The position numbers and the translations under genes are program-made. A stretch of 63,421 bases of DNA, filler included, from Octopus bimaculoides (Eukaryota), in NCBI RefSeq assembly GCF_001194135.2. It is 7 parts of 6 records of this genome, joined end to end, with 100 filler letters (N's around TTAATTAATTAA, not from the genome) between each part and the next. Parts side by side here need not be neighbours in the genome. Positions count along the whole stretch, not along the records: positions 16,854 to 39,442 come from NC_068986.1; 6 more parts are not named here. One strand, written 5' to 3'. Under the pieces are notes generated by a model. It did no database searches, was not told the origin of the DNA, and saw nothing but the letters and a program-made list of their open reading frames with translations. Of the stretch, positions 8,642 through 63,370 are shown in pieces; position 1 is the first letter of the stretch; every line of letters starts with the position of its first letter.

Positions 8642-9848
8642 CAGGGGTTAGACAAAATAATGGAAACACCTAGCATCATAGTATAATAATTTTGAAATAT
8701 CTATAAAACCGTCAAAAGCTTGGTTATTTTTATGTTTTCTAATTTATTATTAGTGCAGCTTAATATGTTTTGCTAAAATTGTTAAAAGGGTAATTAAAAT
8801 TCATTAATATGACAGATCTATCGGACTTTCAAAGGGTTCAAATTGTTGGTGCTCTTATGGCAGGCGCTAGCGTAACGAAAACAACCGAAATGTTTGGTGT
8901 ATCAAGAAGTACTATCTCGAAAGTAATGACAGCTTTTGAGAAAGAGGGGACAACCTCATCGTCGAAACAAAACTCCGGAAGAAAACCAAAACTTTCAGAG
9001 AGGGACCGCCAGACTCTTACGCGAATTGTTAGAAAAGATCACAAAAGTACAGCTCCTAAAATTACTTCAGAACTCAATGACAACCTCGAGAACCCAGTTT
9101 CTACAAAAGACTGTTCGCCGGGAGCTGCACAAAGCCGGATTTCACGGAAGGGCTGCAATCAGAAGACCACTACTTTCAAAAACAAATGTTGCAAATCGTT
9201 TAGAGTGGAGTAAAAACTATAGAATTCGTCCCTAAAGCAGTGGAAGAATGATATTTTCTCGGACGAGTCATCCTTTAGCTTATTTCCGACCACCAGCCGA
9301 CTATATCTGTGGAGACAGCCAAAAGAAGCATTTGACCCAGACTGCCTTCTTCCAATTGTTAAACATACAGGAGAATCTGTGTTGATCTGGGTTGGGGCGG
9401 GGGTTATATCTTGGCATAATTAATAGTCAAGACTATTTAAGCATTTTATCTGATCAAATTCATCCTGTGGCTGCGGAATTGTTTCCGGAGGGAAACGCAA
9501 TCTTTCAGGATGATAATGCATCAATTCACACAGCTAAATTTGTTACTGAATAGCACGAGGAACATTCTAGTGAAGTTGAACATCTTATCTGGCCGCCACA
9601 GTCCCCAGATCTCAATATTATTGAACATTTATGGTGCATTTTAGAAAAACAAGTAAGGAGTCGATATCCTCCACCATCGTCACTACAAGATCTGAAGACT
9701 GTTTTAGCTGAAGAATGGACAAATATTGTACGAGTCCATACCTCGTAGAATTCAAGCTGTAATTACTGCCAAAGGCAGTCCTACCCCATATTAAAAAAAT
9801 AATTTGTTTGAAATTTTAAGTTGGTTCCATTATTTTGTCCATTCCCTG
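8642..9848 (+). mobile_element. Full-length decayed Tc1/mariner transposon, DD36E spacing (Incomer-like)
   Basis: TA TSDs at 8640-41 and 9849-50. 27-bp TIRs match at 23 of 27 positions (CAGGGGTTAGACAAAATAATGGAAACA vs CAGGGAATGGACAAAATAATGGAACCA). Length 1207 bp. Confidence 0.92.
8809..9794 (+). pseudogene. Tc1-family transposase pseudogene
   Basis: N-terminal HTH (MTDLSDFQRVQIVGA..GVSRSTISKV), SGRKPKLS, IFSDES (D at 9262), FQDDNA (D at 9512), WPPQSPDLNIIE (E at 9623). Several frameshifts and an in-frame TAG at 9551; ends TAKGSPTPY*. Confidence 0.9.
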
Positions 9849-16853: not shown

Positions 16854-18429
16854 ATATATATATATATATATATAAATATATATATATATATTTCAATGAT
16901 GCTGATAGTGTTGTCTCATCAAACATATATTATTGATGGTATTGTCGCTGAAACTTTATTACAATTTTGTTAGGCTTTTTCTGCATCGATGCAAGTTGGA
17001 GGAATAGCACTAAAAGCAAAACAGTAATTTCAAGCATCTTTACCTCTTTAGCAATGATTTTAGGATCATAAGATGAGTGAATGTATTATTGAATGATTTC
17101 AGCAGTTTCGGTAATAGTAACTTTTAGTTTCGGCAGTAGGAAAGTTTCTCTTGATGGGATGGGTGTTGCAATTATGGTTTCGAGAGTTCAAATTCAGAAT
17201 GTTAATTAGGATACTCTGAAACACTGGTGAACATTCTTTTATTAAGTTTTTTAGCGATATTTTGTAAAATTTCTGCGGGTAAAGTTAGAAATGAATCAAG
17301 TGCCTCAAAAATTAAAGAAATGTGAAACCCCCCACCCAAAAACAAAAAAACAAAAACAAAAACAAAACATCCTCAATCAATCAGATTTTAAGTTGTTTTT
17401 GCTGTTCAGTTTTTGTCTTTACTCATTATCTTAGCAAGAAAGACTTTAAAGTATTTTGTCGATTCAATTCTTCTCGAATAAAACCGTAGAAGTCATTATT
17501 TGCATCCCTATGAGAAAGTTTTGCAATGCTGATAAAACAACATAGATAGTATTTTATCCATTATCTGAAGTATCCACATGGATTATTTTAACATTGTAAA
17601 TAGCTTATTTCACAGTGTCTACATATCATTGATTAACTACAATTCATGACCATTCTCTTCTTTATCATATTTCTGAAGCTTTTGATTTTTTTTTTTATTG
17701 GAGACCTACAAAATGAACTGATAATTGTTATCACTTTTTAATGACATCGCCAACATTTAAATTTTGGTGATATCATAAGAGGAAAAGGTTTCTGCAATAG
17801 GAGCTATTTCATTAAATTCAAACTATTACAGATCGATATAATTATTAATCACATTCGTAACAGCAGAATTTAAAATTTGAATATCATCCTCGAATGTGTC
17901 TTCAAACTCATTGACACGATTGATGCAAGAATCATTAATTTTCCTGTAAAGACTATCGCTAATGAAGCTATACGCAAAACACAATTGATTCTCGCAGTTC
18001 ATATATTATTAAATTTATCTTGCACCGTCATTTATGGTGGCAACCATATATTTTACCAAATCAGTTGAATTCACGAAGTTTAGTTTTCAAATTTCCAGCA
18101 ATATTTCATCAGGAAAATTTTCATAAATTATGATCATCTCCAAATTCCAGAGTTTACCGGGTGAGTTTACATTTACACCTAAATATCTGAGATTACACGA
18201 AAATGTATATTCATCTAAAGAAATATTGAGTATTTCAGAGTTGAGCTTGTATTTATTTCACAAAAAACATTTTTTCAAATCCTATGGGAGATAAACCCTT
18301 TGCAACAAGAACTATTCTTTGGTAAAATCAAACCATTACATTTAATTGCTTACGAAATAAAAATACTTAACTATTGCATTCATAGGAAATCCATCAAAAG
18401 TAGGAAGCTCGGATGAAAAGCTCATAGGC

Positions 18430-19254
18430 AAGTTGCCATAGCACTCTCTATTGATGGTGTGGCCATTTTGGAGATAATCAACAAACACAATGCCTTCTGC
18501 ATCCTCCAAAACTGAAACCATCATCTTCCCTATAGCTGAAACGATTTTAGCCTTCTTTGGAGCAGGCAAGGAGGGGAGGTTTCCACTGAATGATTTGTTA
18601 CTGGCACAAAATAATGAAGTCAGTATTTATCTTGGGTTAGGTAACGTTTAAGGAAACCAGCTGGATCTGCCTGAAAAAATGTTAGCTTTTCCAGTGATGT
18701 GATCTACCTGGCGCACTTTTGATCCAGTGTCAGATGTGGCACCCACTCAGCAGAAACCTGCCGCCAAGTCAAGTTCATTGTGCAGAATATTCTCATCTCT
18801 CATGGGATGTACTTGTAGCATTGGCTATTTGATTTATAATCAATCACCTGTCATCCGTCTGCATGTATACACGATCAATGTTTTCCTCAGTAGTGACAGA
18901 GGCAGGACTTCCAGACGGTGGATCATCTTCAAGACTCTTCCTTCCCCTCCTAAATTTAGTTGCTCAATTTTACACTGTTGATAAAGCTGAGGTGTCGTCC
19001 CTAATGTATCAACAATGTCAGCATGAATGTTGCTGGGGCTAAATCCTCTTTGTGCAGGTACTTGATGTCAAAATCAAGAGAAATCGCTACTAGTTGATTT
19101 TGAAGTTGTCTTTGAACAGTCAGATATCAGTTATCTGAAAAGAAACAATGCAGTCATTAATAAGAAGAAATTAAACTAATCCATACAAAATTACACAGCT
19201 CTAACGTCGCTCCTTCATAGTCAGTCTATAAGCTTTTCAGCCCACTCTCGCATA
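18430..19254 (-). mobile_element. Mariner transposon remnant (5' end, HTH and start of catalytic domain)
   Basis: Fragmented translation: IKYLHK.., VSAEWVPHL.., PAPKKAKIVSAIGKMMVSVLEDAEGIVFVDYLQNGHTINRECYGNL. Mariner-like end (GAGAGTGGGCTGAAAAGCTT on minus strand) near 19230-19250. Confidence 0.8.
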
Positions 19255-19420: not shown

Positions 19421-19571
19421 TATGCACGTGTGTGTGTGCGTGCGTGTGTAATAAGTATATATGTGTGTATGCATTTATGTATATATTTACGTTCCTACAT
19501 ATATGCATAATTTGTGTGTGGATAAGCTGGACGTTATACAAATCCATTTTTTCCTTTGATCATATGCTCAC

Positions 19572-19623
<52 letters not shown>

Positions 19624-19733
19624 NNNNNNNNNNTATATATATATATATATACATACACACATATGTTAAATAAAATGAGACAACAAAACCAAGGCTGTGT
19701 GGAATTTAGAGGACATTTATAAAGAGAAAGGTA

Positions 19734-19781
19734 GTCTTACAGCTGTTTCTGGGATATTTGGAATATCCCTTCATCAGAGAA
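19734..19781 (-). ncRNA. Minimal type I hammerhead ribozyme motif (left arm)
   Basis: Minus strand: tct-CTGATGA-a-gggatat-tccaa-atatccc-a-GAAAC-agct-GTA-agac. Stem II 7 bp, palindromic AGCT loop III, GUA triplet, stem I 3 bp. Confidence 0.75.
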
Positions 19782-19861
19782 GATATGAGCGAGTTAACTA
19801 GAGGGAAATAGTAGAATTCAATATAAGTTACTATTTCCCTCTAAGTTAACTCTCTCATATC

Positions 19862-19909
19862 GTCTCTGATGAAGGGATATCCCTAATATCTCAGAAACAA
19901 CTGTAAGAA
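19862..19909 (+). ncRNA. Minimal type I hammerhead ribozyme motif (right arm)
   Basis: gtct-CTGATGA-a-gggatat-cccta-atatctc-a-GAAAC-aact-GTA-agaa. Stem II has one G-U pair and loop III is no longer palindromic. Confidence 0.7.
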
Positions 19910-20209
19910 TACCTTTCTCTTTATAAATGTCCTATAAATTTCACACAGCGTTGGTTTTGTTGTGTCACCTTATTCAAAATATACATGCTCACATAACACC
20001 CCCATTACACTCCTCACTCGTATTATTATCGAACCAAGACTCTAACTACGGTCCTCCTGTAGCACTTACATAGCCTTACCTGCCATCTTGGGTCTTCTGG
20101 ATACCAATACCTCTCATGTAAGCATATATGTATGTATAAACACACACACACACATACATATATATACATATATATATATAACACAGTAAAGTTGTAAGAT
20201 ACCGCACGA

Positions 20210-20254
<45 letters not shown>

Positions 20255-20550
20255 NNNNNNNNNNNNNNNNNNNNNNNNNNNNNNNNNNNNNNNNNNNNNN
20301 NNNNNNNNNNNNNNNNNNNNNNNNNNNNNNNNNNNNNNNNNNNNNNNNNNNNNNNNNNNNNNNNNNNNNNNNNNNNNNNNNNNNNNNNNNNNNNNNNNNN
20401 NNNNNNNNNNNNNNNNNNNNNNNNNNNNNNNNNNNNNNNNNNNNNNNNNNNNNNNNNNNNNNNNNNNNNNNNNNNNNNNNNNNNNNNNNNNNNNNNNNNN
20501 NNNNNNNNNNNNNNNNNNNNNNNNNNNNNNNNNNNNNNNNNNNNNNNNNN

Positions 20551-20591
<41 letters not shown>

Positions 20592-20592
20592 T

Positions 20593-20750
20593 ACGACAGC
20601 CTTCTTTCAGTTTCCGTCTACCAAATCCACCCTCAAGGCTTTGGTCGGCCCGAGGCTATAGTAGAAGACACTAGCCCAAGGTGCCACTCAGTGACACTGA
20701 ACCCGGAACCATGTGGTTGGGAAGCTAGTTTCTTACCACACAGCCATGCC
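20593..20750 (-). mobile_element. SINE family A, 5' half
   Basis: Reverse complement of the family A head and body up to the internal (TG)n. Confidence 0.8.
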
Positions 20751-20765
20751 TTCACCTATGTACAC

Positions 20766-28784: not shown

Positions 28785-30580
28785 TCCTTATTGAATTGTA
28801 TTTATTTTTACTACTCTCCGGTATACCGGGAAAAAGGAACTGTTTGATATATTTCTGTGGCCATTGTGGCATTGCTTTTTTGAAATTTTGAGTAAAAATT
28901 CGAATTGTTTTAAGTCGTTTTAGATTTTTTTTGTGCCCCACACCTAGCGGGTTGGAACTGTTATCCTCTATTAGAAGAAAATTTATTATAGGCTTCCACC
29001 TTAAGTGGAAGAAATATCTTCTATTGAACATTTTCTGTAAACTTTGAAAAGCCGTTGTAGGCTTTATTTTTGTATTGAATTAAATTCGACCGAATATGTC
29101 GGTCGAAATTATTAAAGAAAAATGCACTCTCGAAGAGAGTGGTGTTAATGTTGGCGGAGGTGCCAACATTAACACTGTAAATAAATTTTCGGTAGTTGCC
29201 GCGGTGGCAACTGAAACTATTGATATTCCAGTTGAAAAACTGAGGGAATACTTCGAAAGAATAAAGGAGGAGGATGGTGATATTAAGATATTACCCACCT
29301 CCAGTGCAATAGAGACATAAAGAAAAACTACTATATGTAAATCCTACTGTCCCGAGAACAAGCAATTCAAACATTTCGAAAGGGAGATAATAGAAAAACG
29401 CCTGGCCCCTATGTGGAAGGACATTGCATATATCACAAGGGGAAAGGTATATGCGACAATCGAAGTCAGGTTCGCAACCGAGAAGGCCCATGTGTCTCTG
29501 CAAGCCTCTTGAAAACAAAGGAGGTGGTGCTTCTACCATTGGGAGGCGCACTTCCCGTGTAAAGGTGACAGAAGTGCCACCAGAAATAGACCCAAGAGAA
29601 GTGATGGCTGCCCTGTTGTTCAACAGGACAGAAAAAATAAAATTCTTACAGATAACATGCTCTGCTCCCCAGAACTGGCTGGGACAGCATTTCAGCCATA
29701 ATTCAGGGTGCACAGGAAAACATAGAAATGCTTCCAGAGAGGGTGCTCGTGGGTGAGAATGTGGCCCTTCGAATACAGGTGGAGGGAAAGAAACTCTCCT
29801 GTTATGAGTGTGGAAAGGAGGGCCACATTCGTTTGGACTGCGAAGAAAAGAAAAAGAGAACAAAAAAAGAAAAAAGTGACAATCTTGCACAAACACAAGG
29901 CCCTACATCTGTGAAAAACAACCCCAAGACCACACACACACCAGTCTCCACAAAGACAAACATTCCCACCCCTCTGTTGCGGTGCCGTCCCTCAAACAAA
30001 CCAACGAAAAGATCCAGCCCCTGCACATACAAGACCCTACAAAATTAATATTGCCCCCACCTGAAACCTGAGGCACCTGTTGTTGGTGAAAAGAACACAA
30101 CTCCCTTAGACAACACCATGGAGGTGGCTGAGGGTGAGTTCTCGACAGTTCGGAAACGGACACATGCACCTTCCCCCCACAGGAAAACGCCCCACGCCAC
30201 CACATATTACCAAAAAATAACACGCCCCATCGCCCCAGGAAAAAGAAGAGACGATACCATTTTGGTAGAATATAATACCAAAGATCATTACATGGACGAG
30301 GTGATTACGAAACACCACACGGCAAAGTTGTACCCTCAACATAGGAGTATGAACAAGAGGTGTTCCTGGATAAGGAAAACCCTATTCAAGCAACTGAAGG
30401 ATAGGCATCCAAAGGCCATTAGGAGGATTTCGGACCTACCCAGTTACTTGAAGAAGGAGGAGAAGGAAGGGGCTGCCTCACGTGTTGTGAGGTCAACCCC
30501 AGCATCACCAGATAAGGGTAAGTAGAACCCTTGCTTTTTTCCCATTGCTACACTTGGATGTTTGAATGTGCATAGTTAAG
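28785..30580 (+). mobile_element. Tx1/L1-like LINE: frameshifted ORF1 with CCHC knuckle, ORF2 essentially absent
   Basis: ORF pieces from 29096 to 30525; zinc knuckle CYECGKEGHIRLDC at 29800-29841; GCLNVHS* at 30556-30579 resembles an APE endonuclease N-terminus. Confidence 0.7.
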
Positions 30581-38794: not shown

Positions 38795-39160
38795 TATATA
38801 TACTCTTTTATTCTTTTGTTTGTTTCAGTAATTTGCGACCATGTTGGAGCATCGCCTTGAGGTATTTTAGTCGAACCAATAGACCCCAGGACTTGTGTTT
38901 TAAGCTTGATACTTATTCATTCAGTCTCTTTTGATGAACGTAAAGACATCGAGTGGTGATGGGGGGACAAACACAGACACACAGACATACACACATAGAT
39001 ATATGCATACATATACAACGAGCTTCTTTCAGTTTCCGTATACCAAATCTACTCACGAGGCTATAGTAGAAGTCTCTTGGCCAGGGTGTCACGCAGTGAG
39101 ACTAAATCCGGAACCATGTGATTGGGAAGCAAGCTTCTTGCCACAGAGCCACGCTTGCAC
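38795..39160 (-). mobile_element. SINE family A, near full length
   Basis: Reverse-complement match to the other family A copies. Confidence 0.8.
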
Positions 39161-42411: not shown

Positions 42412-43801
42412 ATCATAAAAGAAAACTTAATTGTCTGCTGTACTAGGACACATCATAGGAGAGGAAGCATTTGAGCTACAAAAGAATAGGAAGCAAGGCA
42501 CCTTAAATTAGTTCATTGGTCAGCTATTTTTCAGGAAAAGAACAGCACTAAGGTATCATCTCTTCGGATTATAAAAATTTCAGTGCATGTCATCAGGCAG
42601 TTGCTGGTAGTTGAAGCATCAGTAAAGCACTAAGCAAAATGTCTCGCGGTATCGCATGAGTTTCAATATGTTATGCTTTCATATAGCTCTGAGACCAACC
42701 TGATATTTGAATATTATATCAGCACAACTTTGCTATCAGGTTTTCGTTGTGTTACTGCGCAGCCCTCCAAACTGTATGACTAAGGTTTGATCGCTGATTG
42801 ATGTAGGAGAGTTTCTGGAACTACTGTCTATTCTGTCAGGAAAAAATACTCAAATATTGAGTGAAAAATTAGTCATGCAACATCATCATGAGAAAATTTA
42901 TGGACCATCGTAAAATTCTCCGCCTCATCTCTCTCGCTCTTTCTCTCTGTTTCACTCACTCTGTACACGCACGCACACACACACACACACACATATATAT
43001 NNNNNNNNNNNNNNNNNNNNNNNNNNNNNNNNNNNNNNNNNNNNNNNNNNNNNNNNNNNNNNNNNNNNNNNNNNNNNNNNNNNNNNNNNNNNNNNNNNNN
43101 NNNNNNNNNNNNNNNNNNNNNNNNNNNNNNNNNNNNNNNNNNNNNNNNNNNNNNNNNNNNNNNNNNNNNNNNNNNNNNNNNNNNNNNNNNNNNNNNNNNN
43201 NNNNNNNNNNNNNNNNNNNNNNNNNNNNNNNNNNNNNNNNNNNNNNNNNNNNNNNNNNNNNNNNNNNNNNNNNNNNNNNNNNNNNNNNNNNNNNNNNNNN
43301 NNNNNNNNNNNNNNNNNNNNNNNNNNNNNNNNNNNNNNNNNNNNNNNNNNNNNNNNNNNNNNNNNNNNNNNNNNNNNNNNNNNNNNNNNNNNNNNNNNNN
43401 NNNNNNNNNNNNNNNNNNNNNNNNNNNNNNNNNNNNNNNNNNNNNNNNNNNNNNNNNNNNNNNNNNNNNNNNNNNNNNNNNNNNNNNNNNNNNNNNNNNN
43501 NNNNNNNNNNNNNNNNNNNNNNNNNNNNNNNNNNNNNNNNNNNNNNNNNNNNNNNNNNNNNNNNNNNNNNNNNNNNNNNNNNNNNNNNNNNNNNNNNNNN
43601 NNNNNNNNNNNNNNNNNNNNNNNNNNNNNNNNNNNNNNNNNNNNNNNNNNNNNNNNNNNNNNNNNNNNNNNNNNNNNNNNNNNNNNNNNNNNNNNNNNNN
43701 NNNNNNNNNNNNNNNNNNNNNNNNNNNNNNNNNNNNNNNNNNNNNNNNNNNNNNNNNNNNNNNNNNNNNNNNNNNATACGCATATGTTAAATGAATTCTT
43801 T

Positions 43802-43893
43802 TATTTCCGACATATGTTTCGAAGATTACAAATGGTTCCTTCCAAATGAATAAGTGATGTTGATAAAGATGTAATCTTCTCTTCAGGGAAATA
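43802..43893 (-). ncRNA. Type I hammerhead ribozyme, canonical core (left arm of palindrome)
   Basis: Minus strand reads tatttcc-CTGAAGA-gaagattaca-[39 nt loop]-tgtaatcttc-GAAAC-atat-GTC-ggaaata. Stem I is 7 bp perfect, stem II is 10 bp perfect, stem III is 2 bp closed by the palindromic tetraloop ATAT, and the cleavage triplet is GUC. All core nucleotides are intact. Confidence 0.9.
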
Positions 43894-43966
43894 CATAGGA
43901 ACCAGCTTAACCGTAAGACATTTTAACATTCGGTTAAAATGTCTTACGGTTAAGCTGGTTCCTATG

Positions 43967-44058
43967 TATTTCCTTGAAGAGAAGATTACATCTTTATCAA
44001 CATCACTTATTCCTTTGGAAGGAACCATTTGTAATCTTCGAAACATATGTCGGAAATA
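43967..44058 (+). ncRNA. Type I hammerhead ribozyme with C3U substitution (right arm of palindrome)
   Basis: tatttcc-TTGAAGA-gaagattaca-[39 nt]-tgtaatcttc-GAAAC-atat-GTC-ggaaata. Same as the left-arm copy except C3 to T at 43974 and one change in the stem II loop. Confidence 0.8.
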
Positions 44059-44429
44059 AAAGAATTCGTTTAGCATATGCGTATTACTCCATTTATATAT
44101 ATATATTATAGACTTGAATATTATAAAGTCATACTTTAACAATCTTATAATTCCATCACGACAATGGTTGTCTAATTGTCTAATATTTATATATATTCAT
44201 ACGTATGTATAGAGGTATTCATGTATGTATACACATACATACATACATACATACATACATACATACATACTCACGTACACGCATACATATATATATATAC
44301 ATACATACTTACACATACACACACACATACACACACACCTATTGCAAGATTATCTAATGCTTGGTGGTTGCTTTTTATCAGCGTTATTTGACGGGCAGTT
44401 TTCTTCTTCAAACGCCTGACAGAATCGTA

Positions 44430-51214: not shown

Positions 51215-51510
51215 CACAGGTGTGGCTGTATGGTAAGAAGACTGCTTCCCAATCACATAGTTCCGGGATCAGTCCCATTGCGCGGCACCTTAAGCAAATG
51301 TCTTCTACTATAAGCCTTGGGCCGACCAAAGCCTTATGAGTGGATTTGGTAGACAGAGACTGAAAGAAGCACGTCGTATGTGTGTGTGTGCCCACGTGTG
51401 TGTGTCCGCGTGTCTGTGTGTAGATAGTCATGTGTATGTATAGATACTTATGTGTGTGTGTGTGTATCTTTGTTCCCCCATCATCGCTTGACAACAGATG
51501 TTGGTATGTT
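51215..51510 (+). mobile_element. SINE family A, 5' two-thirds (ends at gap)
   Basis: Match to the family A head, body and internal (GT)n. Confidence 0.8.
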
Positions 51511-60144: not shown

Positions 60145-60282
60145 CTATTCCTTTGCTTGTTGCAGTCATTTGACTGTAGCCATGCTGGAGCACTGCCTGC
60201 TAGTCAAACAAATCGACCCCAGGACTTATTCTTTGTAAGCTTATTACTTATTTGATCGGTCTTTTTTTCCAAGCCGCTAAGT
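60145..60282 (-). mobile_element. SINE family A, 3' part abutting the Tigger fragment
   Basis: CAGTCATTTGACTGTAGCCATGCTGGAGCA..CGACCCCAGGACTTATTCTTTG. Confidence 0.75.
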
Positions 60283-60876
60283 GAGGGTGGCCAGGAGCAT
60301 TATCTAAGATAAGTAAGACCTTAAAAGGAATCCCCTTCTCCTTATAGTACTTCTCTGTTGCTGGGATAAAATGATTGAAGAACCAATCTTCAAAAACAAC
60401 AACAGTAACCCATGTTTTTGAATTAGCCAAGGGAGAGATACCTTGGGTATGTTCTTCAGAGCACGGGGATTGTGTGCATGATACACAAGCAATGGCTTTA
60501 ACTGAAAATCTCCTGCACAATTACCTCCCAGCATAATGGTCACACATTCTTTTGAAACCTTGTAGCCTGGAATAGTTTTCTCCTCCTTGGAGATGAATGA
60601 ACGGTCTGGCAATTTTTTCCAATACAATCCAGTTTCATCTATGTTTTAAATCTGTTTGGAAAGAAACCCGTTTTCTTCCATGATTTTCTTTAATGCATTA
60701 TGAAATTCTGCCACTGCTTGTTCGTCAGCTGATGCACTTTCACCTTGCTTCTTAATGGAGTGATAACTTCTTCGCTCCTTAAATAGCATGAACCATCCTT
60801 GACTTGCCTTGAACTCTACATCTTTCTCATCTGAATATTTTTTCTTCAGGTCCTCAAACAAAGACAAAGCTTTCAT
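60283..60876 (-). pseudogene. pogo/Tigger transposase fragment (CENP-B-type HTH plus DDE_1 domain)
   Basis: FKASQGWFMLFKER..GESASAD..QI*NIDETGLYWKKLPDRSFISKEEK..GGNCAGDFQLKPLLVY..WVT..FEDWF..LLILDNAPGHP, with a stop and a frameshift. Confidence 0.88.
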
Positions 60877-62048: not shown

Positions 62049-63370
62049 NNNNNNNNNNNNNNNNNNNNNNNNNNNNNNNNNNNNNNNNNNNNTTAATTAA
62101 TTAANNNNNNNNNNNNNNNNNNNNNNNNNNNNNNNNNNNNNNNNNNNNTATATATATAAATATACACACACATACACACACACATATATATATATACTTA
62201 TACACATGTATGCATACACAAACGATACACACTGAGAGGTGTAGACATATACATGCACACATACATCATTACGTACGAATATATATTAAAACGGTGCCTT
62301 AAGTATTTAACTAATAGTGCATACATACATGCATTTTACGAGCATGGTCCCTTGCATCTATCCATCTATACACACACACAGCCCCCCCCCCACGATAAGA
62401 TATTTACGTAAGTGACTATTACATTATTACTAATGCTCAGTCTCTAAAGGTGGCAATTGCTTTCATTAGCTTACAGATGTTTCCGCGGCTAAAAGTATCA
62501 CTCACCTAACACTTCCCTCTGAAGCATAAGTATATTACAGTTTCGCAAGTTATTAATATGGCTCTGCATAAGAGAAGTTGTTATACATACAGGCATTTCT
62601 GTATGGTAAGAAGGTGAAAAAAGGTTGCAGATATGGGGGAGGCTAAAAGCCCCAGTGAAGTATATGAACATTTATAAGAGGCTTGTTGCCTCATATAAAG
62701 AGGAAGAATGTTTGTGTTAATTTGTTTTATAAATCTGACCGACTTGTATTGAAAAAAGTTTTAGAGAGGTTATCAGTCGGCGGGCGCAGATGCCTCTCCC
62801 ATTTTCATTCTGTCTTGTGCATTCATCTTCATTCATTAATATATATATATATATACACGAACACACACTACACACACATATATATACGACTATTGAAAAG
62901 GTGGCAAGACGCAATGAAAATTTTGGAAAAATAAATAAGTAAATGAGTGGAAACCGAGTCGGTGAGTGTGTTAAATAATAAGGCATTAAAACAGAATGAC
63001 TTTCCCCGAACAATAACACACACACACAGACACACAGACACACACAGAGACACACACACACACAGACACACACACACAGACACACACACACACATATATA
63101 TATGAAGGATTTCATGTATGCGTGAGTGTTATGAACGCAAACGTACAGATACAGAGAGCTGCACACATGCACATGTGTACTTGAGGGTATACAGATAGAC
63201 GGCTGGGGTAGAGAGGAGACAGACACGTGGGCGCGAATCAATGACTGCTTATGAGGAGATGCACCTGTTTGGACTTTATTGCTAGACATTTATAAACAGA
63301 AACACACGCGTAAACACACACACACATGAACACATGTACGCACGCACACACTCACACGAGAAGTCACAGA

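What the first reader, a model, noticed from the sequence alone, without database searches (positions are those of the whole stretch)
19669..19974. Second, unrelated palindromic element with outward-pointing minimal hammerheads
Seen: arms of about 145 bp share no obvious sequence with the 43.8-kb element but have the same layout. Each arm carries CUGAUGA-A-GGGAUAU..AUAUCYC-A-GAAAC-A(G/A)CU-GUA. The two arms together reconstruct a 4-bp stem I (GUCU/AGAC) and a palindromic AGCU loop III. The unpaired A on each side of stem II is non-canonical. Inference: an older, more diverged family using the same strategy.
Basis: partly seen in the sequence, partly recalled or inferred. Interest (0 to 1): 0.8.

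Follow-up and report, generated by a model that had tools for sequence, protein, structure and literature searches.

The report
Inverted Penelope-like retroelement ends with hammerheads
The palindrome is two shortened copies of one common repeat end joined back to back, one with an extra 137-base tail and each with a minimal hammerhead ribozyme motif, and it is most likely the ordinary, already described footprint of a Penelope-like retrotransposon insertion.

Summary
The palindrome and both hammerhead motifs are real (arms 138 of 153 identical; 4 descriptor hits in the window against 0.11 expected). It is not a self-contained palindromic element. Contigs and reads laid on it show a multi-copy family. 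The family runs on upstream past the centre, so the 'loop' is just the longer left copy and the junction looks particular to this copy. It also runs on past the right arm for about 137 nt. The family has two 3' ends, about 19979 and 20116, each followed by (CA)n or (TA)n. The true unit is 19664 to about 20116: a 5'-truncated copy with a tail, plus an inverted 5'-truncated copy without one. This is the published insertion pattern of Penelope-like elements (PLEs). Family majority letters restore stem I GUCU/AGAC, stem II and the palindromic AGCU loop. The 'non-canonical' A on each side of stem II is allowed in the 2014 min-HHR descriptor, and that paper already reports opposite-strand pairs 100-700 bp apart. 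No RT/GIY-YIG gene could be linked, so PLE membership is inferred. Cleavage was not shown. Verdict: a new member of a known kind, low interest; the long tail is the one mildly unusual feature.

The parts
19664..19827 (-). Left, inverted, 5'-truncated copy of the family 3' end (164 nt, no tail). It includes the apparent loop 19814-19827.
   Evidence: Arm alignment. The loose-end consensus before 19844/19846 in other copies matches this arm read through the loop at 27 of 28 letters.
19734..19781 (-). Left minimal type I hammerhead motif: core 19777-19771, 8-bp stem II, palindromic ACAGCUGU, predicted cut between 19738 and 19737, stem I 3 bp plus a U-C mismatch
   Evidence: Cofolding two copies pairs ACAGCUGU between molecules and keeps stem II, -33.1 kcal/mol.
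19827..19829 (.). Head-to-head junction of the two truncated copies, likely specific to this insertion
   Evidence: Other copies run on past 19827 into upstream family sequence (19, 31 and 6 contigs in X2, X14, X15). Bin 19829-19839 has the lowest depth of the stretch in all three contig runs.
19829..19979 (+). Right, direct, 5'-truncated copy up to the first family 3' end
   Evidence: loose ends behind 19963/19974 read the family end and then (CA)n or (TA)n.
19862..19909 (+). Right minimal type I hammerhead motif: core 19866-19872, extra A 19873, stem II 19874-19892, extra A 19893, GAAA 19894-19897, predicted cut after 19905. It departs from the family majority at 19891, 19900 and 19909.
19980..20116 (+). 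One-sided extension ('tail') of about 137 nt up to the second family 3' end; its first 50 nt are 71% A+C
   Evidence: Contigs of other copies (37-43 differences each) span 19844-20110, 19844-20089, 19845-20070 and 19866-20110. Loose ends behind 20107 run through CCTCTC into (TA)n or (CA)n in 20, 30 and 3 contigs. Composition.
19869..20114 (+). Possible decayed reading frame starting at the AUG inside the hammerhead core, with three TAA stops. Coding status unresolved.
   Evidence: One Logan-derived protein (P0003, 55% identical over 67 residues) continues 68 residues past this point. No Pfam or RT link.
19570..19663 (.). Left flank: (TA)n/(CA)n microsatellite with a 10-N gap, likely the target
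   Evidence: Sequence
20117..20255 (.). Right flank: mostly TA/CA low-complexity sequence; no target-site duplication can be resolved
   Evidence: Sequence

Best explanation
This is most likely the footprint of one insertion by a Penelope-like retroelement (PLE): two 5'-truncated copies of the family's hammerhead-bearing 3' end joined head to head between TA/CA microsatellites, only the right one carrying a 137-nt tail. Shown: a multi-copy family, two fixed 3' ends followed by microsatellite, a tail on one side, upstream continuation of the family past the centre, and a hammerhead with family-majority stems and a palindromic loop III. Inferred from the Poseidon PAc biochemistry and PLE anatomy: a PLE RT/GIY-YIG protein nicked both strands of an AT-rich target and started reverse transcription internally at two sites on the RNA (about 20116 and about 19979). 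Both cDNAs stopped 35-50 nt upstream of the hammerhead and were joined. The hammerheads are passengers of the copied end. In the parent element they would cut as dimers through ACAGCUGU, possibly with protein help. At this locus only one is in sense on either strand, and a read-through RNA is predicted to bury it in a 150-bp hairpin, so the locus is likely inert as a ribozyme.
For: Family: 1,928 contigs laid in X2 (organism A), 2,530 in X14 (organism D), 330 in X15 (organism B) and 140 RNA reads in X24. Two ends, tail and centre as listed under parts. Single-contig strand-switch joints at other positions, such as 19844/20003 and 19897/20057 in X14. None of the 40 variant rows shown falls on a core position. 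The ribozyme anatomy matches the PLE min-HHR consensus: stem II 7-8 bp, stem I 4-5 bp, extra nucleotide after A9, palindromic loop III, opposite-strand pairs 100-700 bp apart (PMC4209133). An inverted 5'-truncated copy, a one-sided tail and microsatellite targets are described for PLEs (PMC8557442). The tail is the stretch between two internal RT start sites (PMC11167929). The read-through hairpin is -202.9 kcal/mol with the core paired.
Against: No RT or GIY-YIG sequence was linked to the family (all blank for this). The tail is about 137 nt, not the 30-40 nt described. No target-site duplication is visible. 85 variant rows, 32 joints, 518 loose ends and 4,860 pieces were not shown, so core conservation and the uniqueness of the junction rest on the rows shown. 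Short-read contigs may also break at fold-back centres. The monomer does not fold into the active form and is no more stable than shuffles (z -1.03). No RNA ends pile up at the cut site in the 140 reads laid (table 6).
Confidence: 0.85

Rival explanations
1. The palindrome is itself a mobile unit, a fold-back retrozyme-like element cut out of transcripts by its two outward-pointing hammerheads and re-inserted as a whole.
For: Two such palindromes of different families lie in one 63-kb window, with arms of similar length and the same 12-mer at their left ends. Contigs crossing this exact junction could not be counted from the rows shown.
Against: The two ribozymes are on opposite strands, so no single RNA holds both in sense (sequence). 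In other copies the family continues upstream of the centre (100 contigs in X2 and 123 in X14 at 19844/19846; 19 and 31 at 19827). The right side has a tail that the left lacks. Described non-LTR retrozymes are head-to-tail tandems.
Confidence: 0.05
2. One PLE-type end was inserted first, and the inverted arm arose later at the DNA level (replication template switch or repair), independent of retrotransposition.
For: The arms are unevenly diverged: of 15 arm mismatches, 10 are rows where the family majority equals the left-arm letter.
Against: The left arm ends exactly at a family 3' end used by many other copies, and it holds 14 nt of upstream family sequence that the right copy lacks, so it cannot be a copy of the right arm.
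Confidence: 0.06
3. It is a DNA-transposon MITE or foldback element, and the hammerhead motif is a coincidence.
For: Long inverted arms, small size and a TA-rich target; Tc1/mariner and pogo-like remnants are present in the window.
Against: The ends are asymmetric (137-nt tail). The motif is about 36-fold above simulated background. Family majority letters restore stem I, stem II and the palindromic loop. The family continues past the centre.
Confidence: 0.02

Closest known systems
Minimal type I hammerheads (min-HHR) in the pseudo-LTRs of metazoan Penelope-like elements (Cervera and de la Pena 2014, PMC4209133)
   Same: CUGANGA-H core, G-C opening of a 7-8 bp stem II, 4-bp stem I, palindromic loop III, predicted dimer. 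The paper reports pairs 100-700 bp apart on opposite strands. Its descriptor allows an extra N10 and an extra N11. One D. willistoni row of its Fig. S3 has stem I GUCUG/CAGAC and an AGCU loop.
   Different: Here the 3' extra A (AGAAA) is present in both arms; 1 of the 56 GAAA entries in Fig. S3 reads AGAAA, and its row cannot be assigned from the text. No RT ORF is linked here.
Inverted, 5'-truncated PLE insertions with a one-sided tail (Craig et al. 2021, PMC8557442, Fig. 2 legend; Penelope of D. virilis, PMC2377424)
   Same: An inverted truncated copy abuts the 5' end, the tail is at one end only, the target is microsatellite and no duplication can be resolved.
   Different: Both copies are cut down to under 300 nt, with no ORF body. 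The tail is about 137 nt instead of 30-40 nt. The clade is unassigned: Naiads lack canonical hammerheads, while Neptune and Hydra have both hammerheads and repeat targeting.
Poseidon element PAc of Anolis carolinensis (Frangieh et al. 2024, PMC11167929)
   Same: A hammerhead upstream of two internal termini that delimit the tail; AT-rich target; an AC-rich stretch near a terminus; an AUG at the hammerhead.
   Different: The spacing is longer here. The AUG lies inside the core, not at the start of stem II. Nothing was tested biochemically here.
Non-LTR retrozymes of animals (PMC7229834; bioRxiv 10.64898/2026.07.22.740005)
   Same: Short, non-coding, type I hammerhead, PLE-related.
   Different: Retrozymes are head-to-tail tandems; the 2020 paper ties them to classical type I hammerheads and treats minimal ones as the PLE type. 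This locus is head-to-head, with a minimal hammerhead and a PLE-type tail.

Membership tests
PLE-type minimal hammerhead (min-HHR) | Core CUGANGA...GAAAN..NUH in type I order with stems I and II | tested here: met
   family majority restores the stems
PLE-type minimal hammerhead (min-HHR) | Short palindromic helix III/loop 3 allowing a dimer | tested here: met
   ACAGCUGU in the left arm and in 94-95% of family depth; intermolecular duplex in the cofold (prediction only)
PLE-type minimal hammerhead (min-HHR) | Compensatory covariation in stems I and II across copies | not testable with these tools
   No genome is held, and the lay gives per-position counts, not phased copies
PLE-type minimal hammerhead (min-HHR) | Self-cleavage at NUH | tested here: inconclusive
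   No end pile-up among 140 RNA reads from a standard paired cDNA library; no bench assay
Penelope-like element (EN+) | RT plus GIY-YIG ORF in full-length copies | tested here: inconclusive
   None is seen at this truncated locus. Searches with its read-through frames and with P0003 found no RT. Full-length copies could not be fetched.
Penelope-like element (EN+) | 5' truncation with an adjacent inverted truncated copy | tested here: met
   The family continues upstream of both 5' ends
Penelope-like element (EN+) | Two 3' termini, tail present at one end only | tested here: met
   Ends near 19979 and 20116 in three contig runs; the length is about 137 nt, longer than the 30-40 nt described
Penelope-like element (EN+) | Insertion into AT-rich or microsatellite targets | tested here: met
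   Loose ends at both termini run into (CA)n or (TA)n; flanks
Non-LTR retrozyme | Head-to-tail tandem units, each with a type I hammerhead | tested here: not met
   Head-to-head pair at this locus, and no further copy in the window apart from one weak 38-nt match; tandems elsewhere in the genome were not tested
MITE / TIR DNA transposon | Symmetric terminal inverted repeats with a target-site duplication | tested here: not met
   One end extends 137 nt beyond the inverted repeat; no duplication can be resolved

The most novel reading that the evidence does not exclude
An ORF-less miniature PLE parasite whose two reverse-transcription starts lie about 137 nt apart (four times the usual tail), carrying a hammerhead that is active with an A-A mismatch at the base of stem II, and which routinely leaves 150-bp fold-backs across the genome that supply long double-stranded RNA for editing or RNAi.
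Probability: 0.15. Interest if true: 0.5.

Novelty: new member of a known kind. Interest (0 to 1): 0.2.

Why it matters
Mostly it does not: this ribozyme type and this insertion layout were described in 2014-2024. Its use is practical. Such fold-backs look like MITEs or microRNA hairpins (Rfam returns only miRNA-type hits below threshold) and are likely to be mis-annotated. They record both cDNA ends of a single insertion, so a genome-wide set could test the two-start model of PLE reverse transcription in a family with an unusually long tail.

Tried and rejected
No whole genome is held, so no copy alignment or covariation test was possible. Rfam gave no hammerhead family among the 150 of 158 rows shown for the window or the 17 rows for the element. 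Motif scans: viral contigs 0, prokaryote genomes 0. The metagenome scan gave 15 matches; none showed similarity to the element beyond the pattern itself by blastn, and I treated all as chance. Protein searches with two read-through frames and with P0003 found no RT link. P0004 is a repeat-driven false hit. The variant positions shown have no third-codon-position excess in any frame (11/9/8); this is a weak test, as most are private changes of this copy. The last tail residues in a second frame reminded me of Neptune-type N-termini; that is recall only and was not confirmed. A 16-nt near-repeat that first looked like a target-site duplication (left flank against 19980-19995) was dropped, because the right copy lies inside the family tail. 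Joints 19791-19795 to 19852-19857 are mirror positions within the laid stretch and were not counted as separate inversions. No RNA holder was listed by the index. Earlier-findings look-ups gave nothing on this sequence or genome; the 8 of 225 listed concern other genomes. Lunse et al. (dimer cleavage of PLE hammerheads) is not held, so whether it already lists this core variant is unchecked. An earlier count said no RNA read is 95% alike or more; the table shows 1 of 140 at 99% or more.

Full report
Observation. The window is microsatellite-rich, gap-rich DNA that looks like an animal genome; no whole genome is held. The arms align over 19661-19813 and 19829-19982 with 138 of 153 identities and one 1-nt gap; the 43.8-kb element has 147 of 151. 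A relaxed type I hammerhead descriptor, which I wrote after seeing the motif, finds 4 hits in the window: the four arms of the two elements. In 100 Markov simulations it found a mean of 0.11 and at most 2. Rfam gives only sub-threshold miRNA- and snoRNA-type hits. The two elements share no sequence apart from a 12-mer at their left ends. Both matches are exact, but the count is not above chance at one mismatch (2 seen, 1.84 expected).

It is a family. Twenty of 24 listed runs hold part of the stretch, from four coded organisms. I laid 4 of the 24 on 19785-20110 at 80% likeness: 1,928 contigs in X2 (organism A), 2,530 in X14 (organism D), 330 in X15 (organism B, guessed RNA) and 140 raw RNA reads in X24 (organism A, about 6% of the run read). 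Copy number was not measured. The family majority repairs the right arm's ribozyme: 19891 C (92% and 94% of depth in X2 and X14), 19900 G giving AGCU (94% and 95%; 109 of 110 RNA reads) and 19909 C giving AGAC (98% and 96%). None of the 40 variant rows shown lies on a core position; 85 rows were not shown. One RNA loose end (24 reads, full agreement, probably one locus) has U in place of A at both extra positions around a GGG/CCC-opened stem. That fits a tolerated mismatch at the stem base, but it may simply be a decayed copy.

Centre: alignments of other copies break near 19844-19846, where this copy has a 1-nt insertion. Their loose letters (25+75 contigs in X2, 37+86 in X14, 16 in X15, 11 RNA reads) match the left arm read on through 19814-19827 (27 of 28 letters for the X2 consensus). 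At 19827 a further 19, 31 and 6 contigs run on into upstream family sequence. So the 'loop' is the 14 nt by which the left copy is longer, and both copies are 5'-truncated pieces of something longer. Right side: contigs of other copies (37-43 differences) span 19844-20110 and similar ranges. Loose ends mark two termini, near 19979 and near 20116, each followed by (CA)n or (TA)n. The left arm stops at the first terminus (19664) and the right copy at the second. The unit is therefore 19664 to about 20116, with a tail of about 137 nt on one side. Limits: most joints, loose ends and pieces were not displayed, no listed piece spans the whole stretch, and short-read contigs may break at fold-back centres, so the junction's uniqueness is likely rather than proven.

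Mechanism. This anatomy is the one described for Penelope-like elements. Craig et al. 2021 (PMC8557442; passages; supplement searched) describe an inverted 5'-truncated copy next to the 5' end, a 30-40 bp tail often at one end only, and microsatellite targets that hide duplications. Frangieh et al. 2024 (PMC11167929; passages and the whole main-text section) show that the PAc protein cuts and extends both strands at AT-rich sites. It starts reverse transcription internally at two sites that delimit the tail; the hammerhead is protein-assisted and dispensable for insertion in vitro, and no RNA-seq ends were found at its cut site. I infer the same here: two cDNAs started at the two termini, stopped 35-50 nt upstream of the hammerhead and were joined head to head. 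The natural left-arm hammerhead does not fold into the active form alone (z -1.03), while two copies are predicted to pair through ACAGCUGU with stem II intact (-33.1 kcal/mol). At this locus only one ribozyme is in sense per strand, and a read-through RNA is predicted to fold into a hairpin of -202.9 kcal/mol with the core paired, so excision by the pair is not plausible. The RNA reads lie on both strands, 1 of 140 is 99% alike or more, 94% run on into unlike sequence, and no ends pile up. This fits passenger transcription of many copies and shows no cleavage.

The missing link. A frame from the AUG inside the core runs 82 codons with three TAA stops. One stop is absent from the left arm, and about 62% of X2 depth has another letter at the first base of the second stop. 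The only real homologue is a singleton Logan protein, P0003, 55% identical over 67 residues and continuing 68 residues past the tail, so some copy extends beyond the second terminus. It has no Pfam hit, no longer homologue and no Atlas hit of 0.9 or more. PLE membership in the strict sense (RT plus GIY-YIG) is therefore not shown; 'works like a PLE insertion' is well supported.

Comparison with print. Cervera and de la Pena 2014 (PMC4209133; parts 1-2 of 4 of the main text and the whole supplement PDF as text) define these minimal hammerheads: long stem II, short stem I, an extra nucleotide after A9 and a palindromic loop III. They note dual motifs 100-700 bp apart on opposite strands. Their descriptor allows an extra N10 and an extra N11, and 1 of 56 alignment entries reads AGAAA. 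Perreault et al. 2011 (PMC3088659; passages) report a natural U-U mismatch at 10.1-11.1. Retrozymes are head-to-tail (PMC7229834, passages; bioRxiv 10.64898/2026.07.22.740005, parts 1-2 of 5, supplements closed). Inverted repeats in D. virilis Penelope are in PMC2377424 (passages). The dimer work of Lunse et al. I saw only as cited in PMC6765202 (passages); it may list this variant. Searches turned up no paper on this particular family or on self-propagating PLE palindromes, judged from the listings; Repbase/Dfam and most subscription journals were not searchable.

Verdict. A real hammerhead-bearing repeat end in a known insertion layout; a new member of a known kind; interest 0.2. The long tail and the A-A stem base are the only mildly unusual points.

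Noticed in passing
window 43777-44083: The 43.8-kb palindrome has arms 147 of 151 identical, a 7-bp stem I, a 10-bp stem II with a long loop, an AUAU loop III, and C3 in the left arm against U3 in the right. The left arm cofolds into a complete dimeric hammerhead. The AT-rich stretch 44084-44190 may be its one-sided tail; not tested.
   Followed up: partly
window 19660-19671 and 43781-43792: Both unrelated elements end on the left in the same exact 12-mer; in this family the first part is the 3' terminus. This may reflect a shared start or cut preference.
   Followed up: partly
window 8794-9232: Frameshifted Tc1-type transposase remnant (HTH and HTH_Tnp_Tc3_2, E 8.6e-13).
   Followed up: partly
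window 18345-18626 (minus): Mariner-type transposase fragment (Transposase_1, E 3e-08).
   Followed up: partly
window 60251-60645 (minus): Frameshifted pogo/Tigger-like DDE_1 transposase fragment.
   Followed up: partly
window 29394-30525: Broken gag-like reading frames with a zinc knuckle (zf-CCHC, E 6e-04, just under the cut-off), probably a retroelement ORF1 remnant.
   Followed up: partly
window 63265-63302: Weak 38-nt match (79%, E 0.007) to the arm downstream of the hammerhead; possibly an old fragment of a related family.
   Followed up: no
window 20575-20760, 39050-39130, 51330-51420, 54130: Several pieces of what looks like one SINE-like repeat recur next to microsatellites, seen as similar text in the translations; not aligned.
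   Followed up: no
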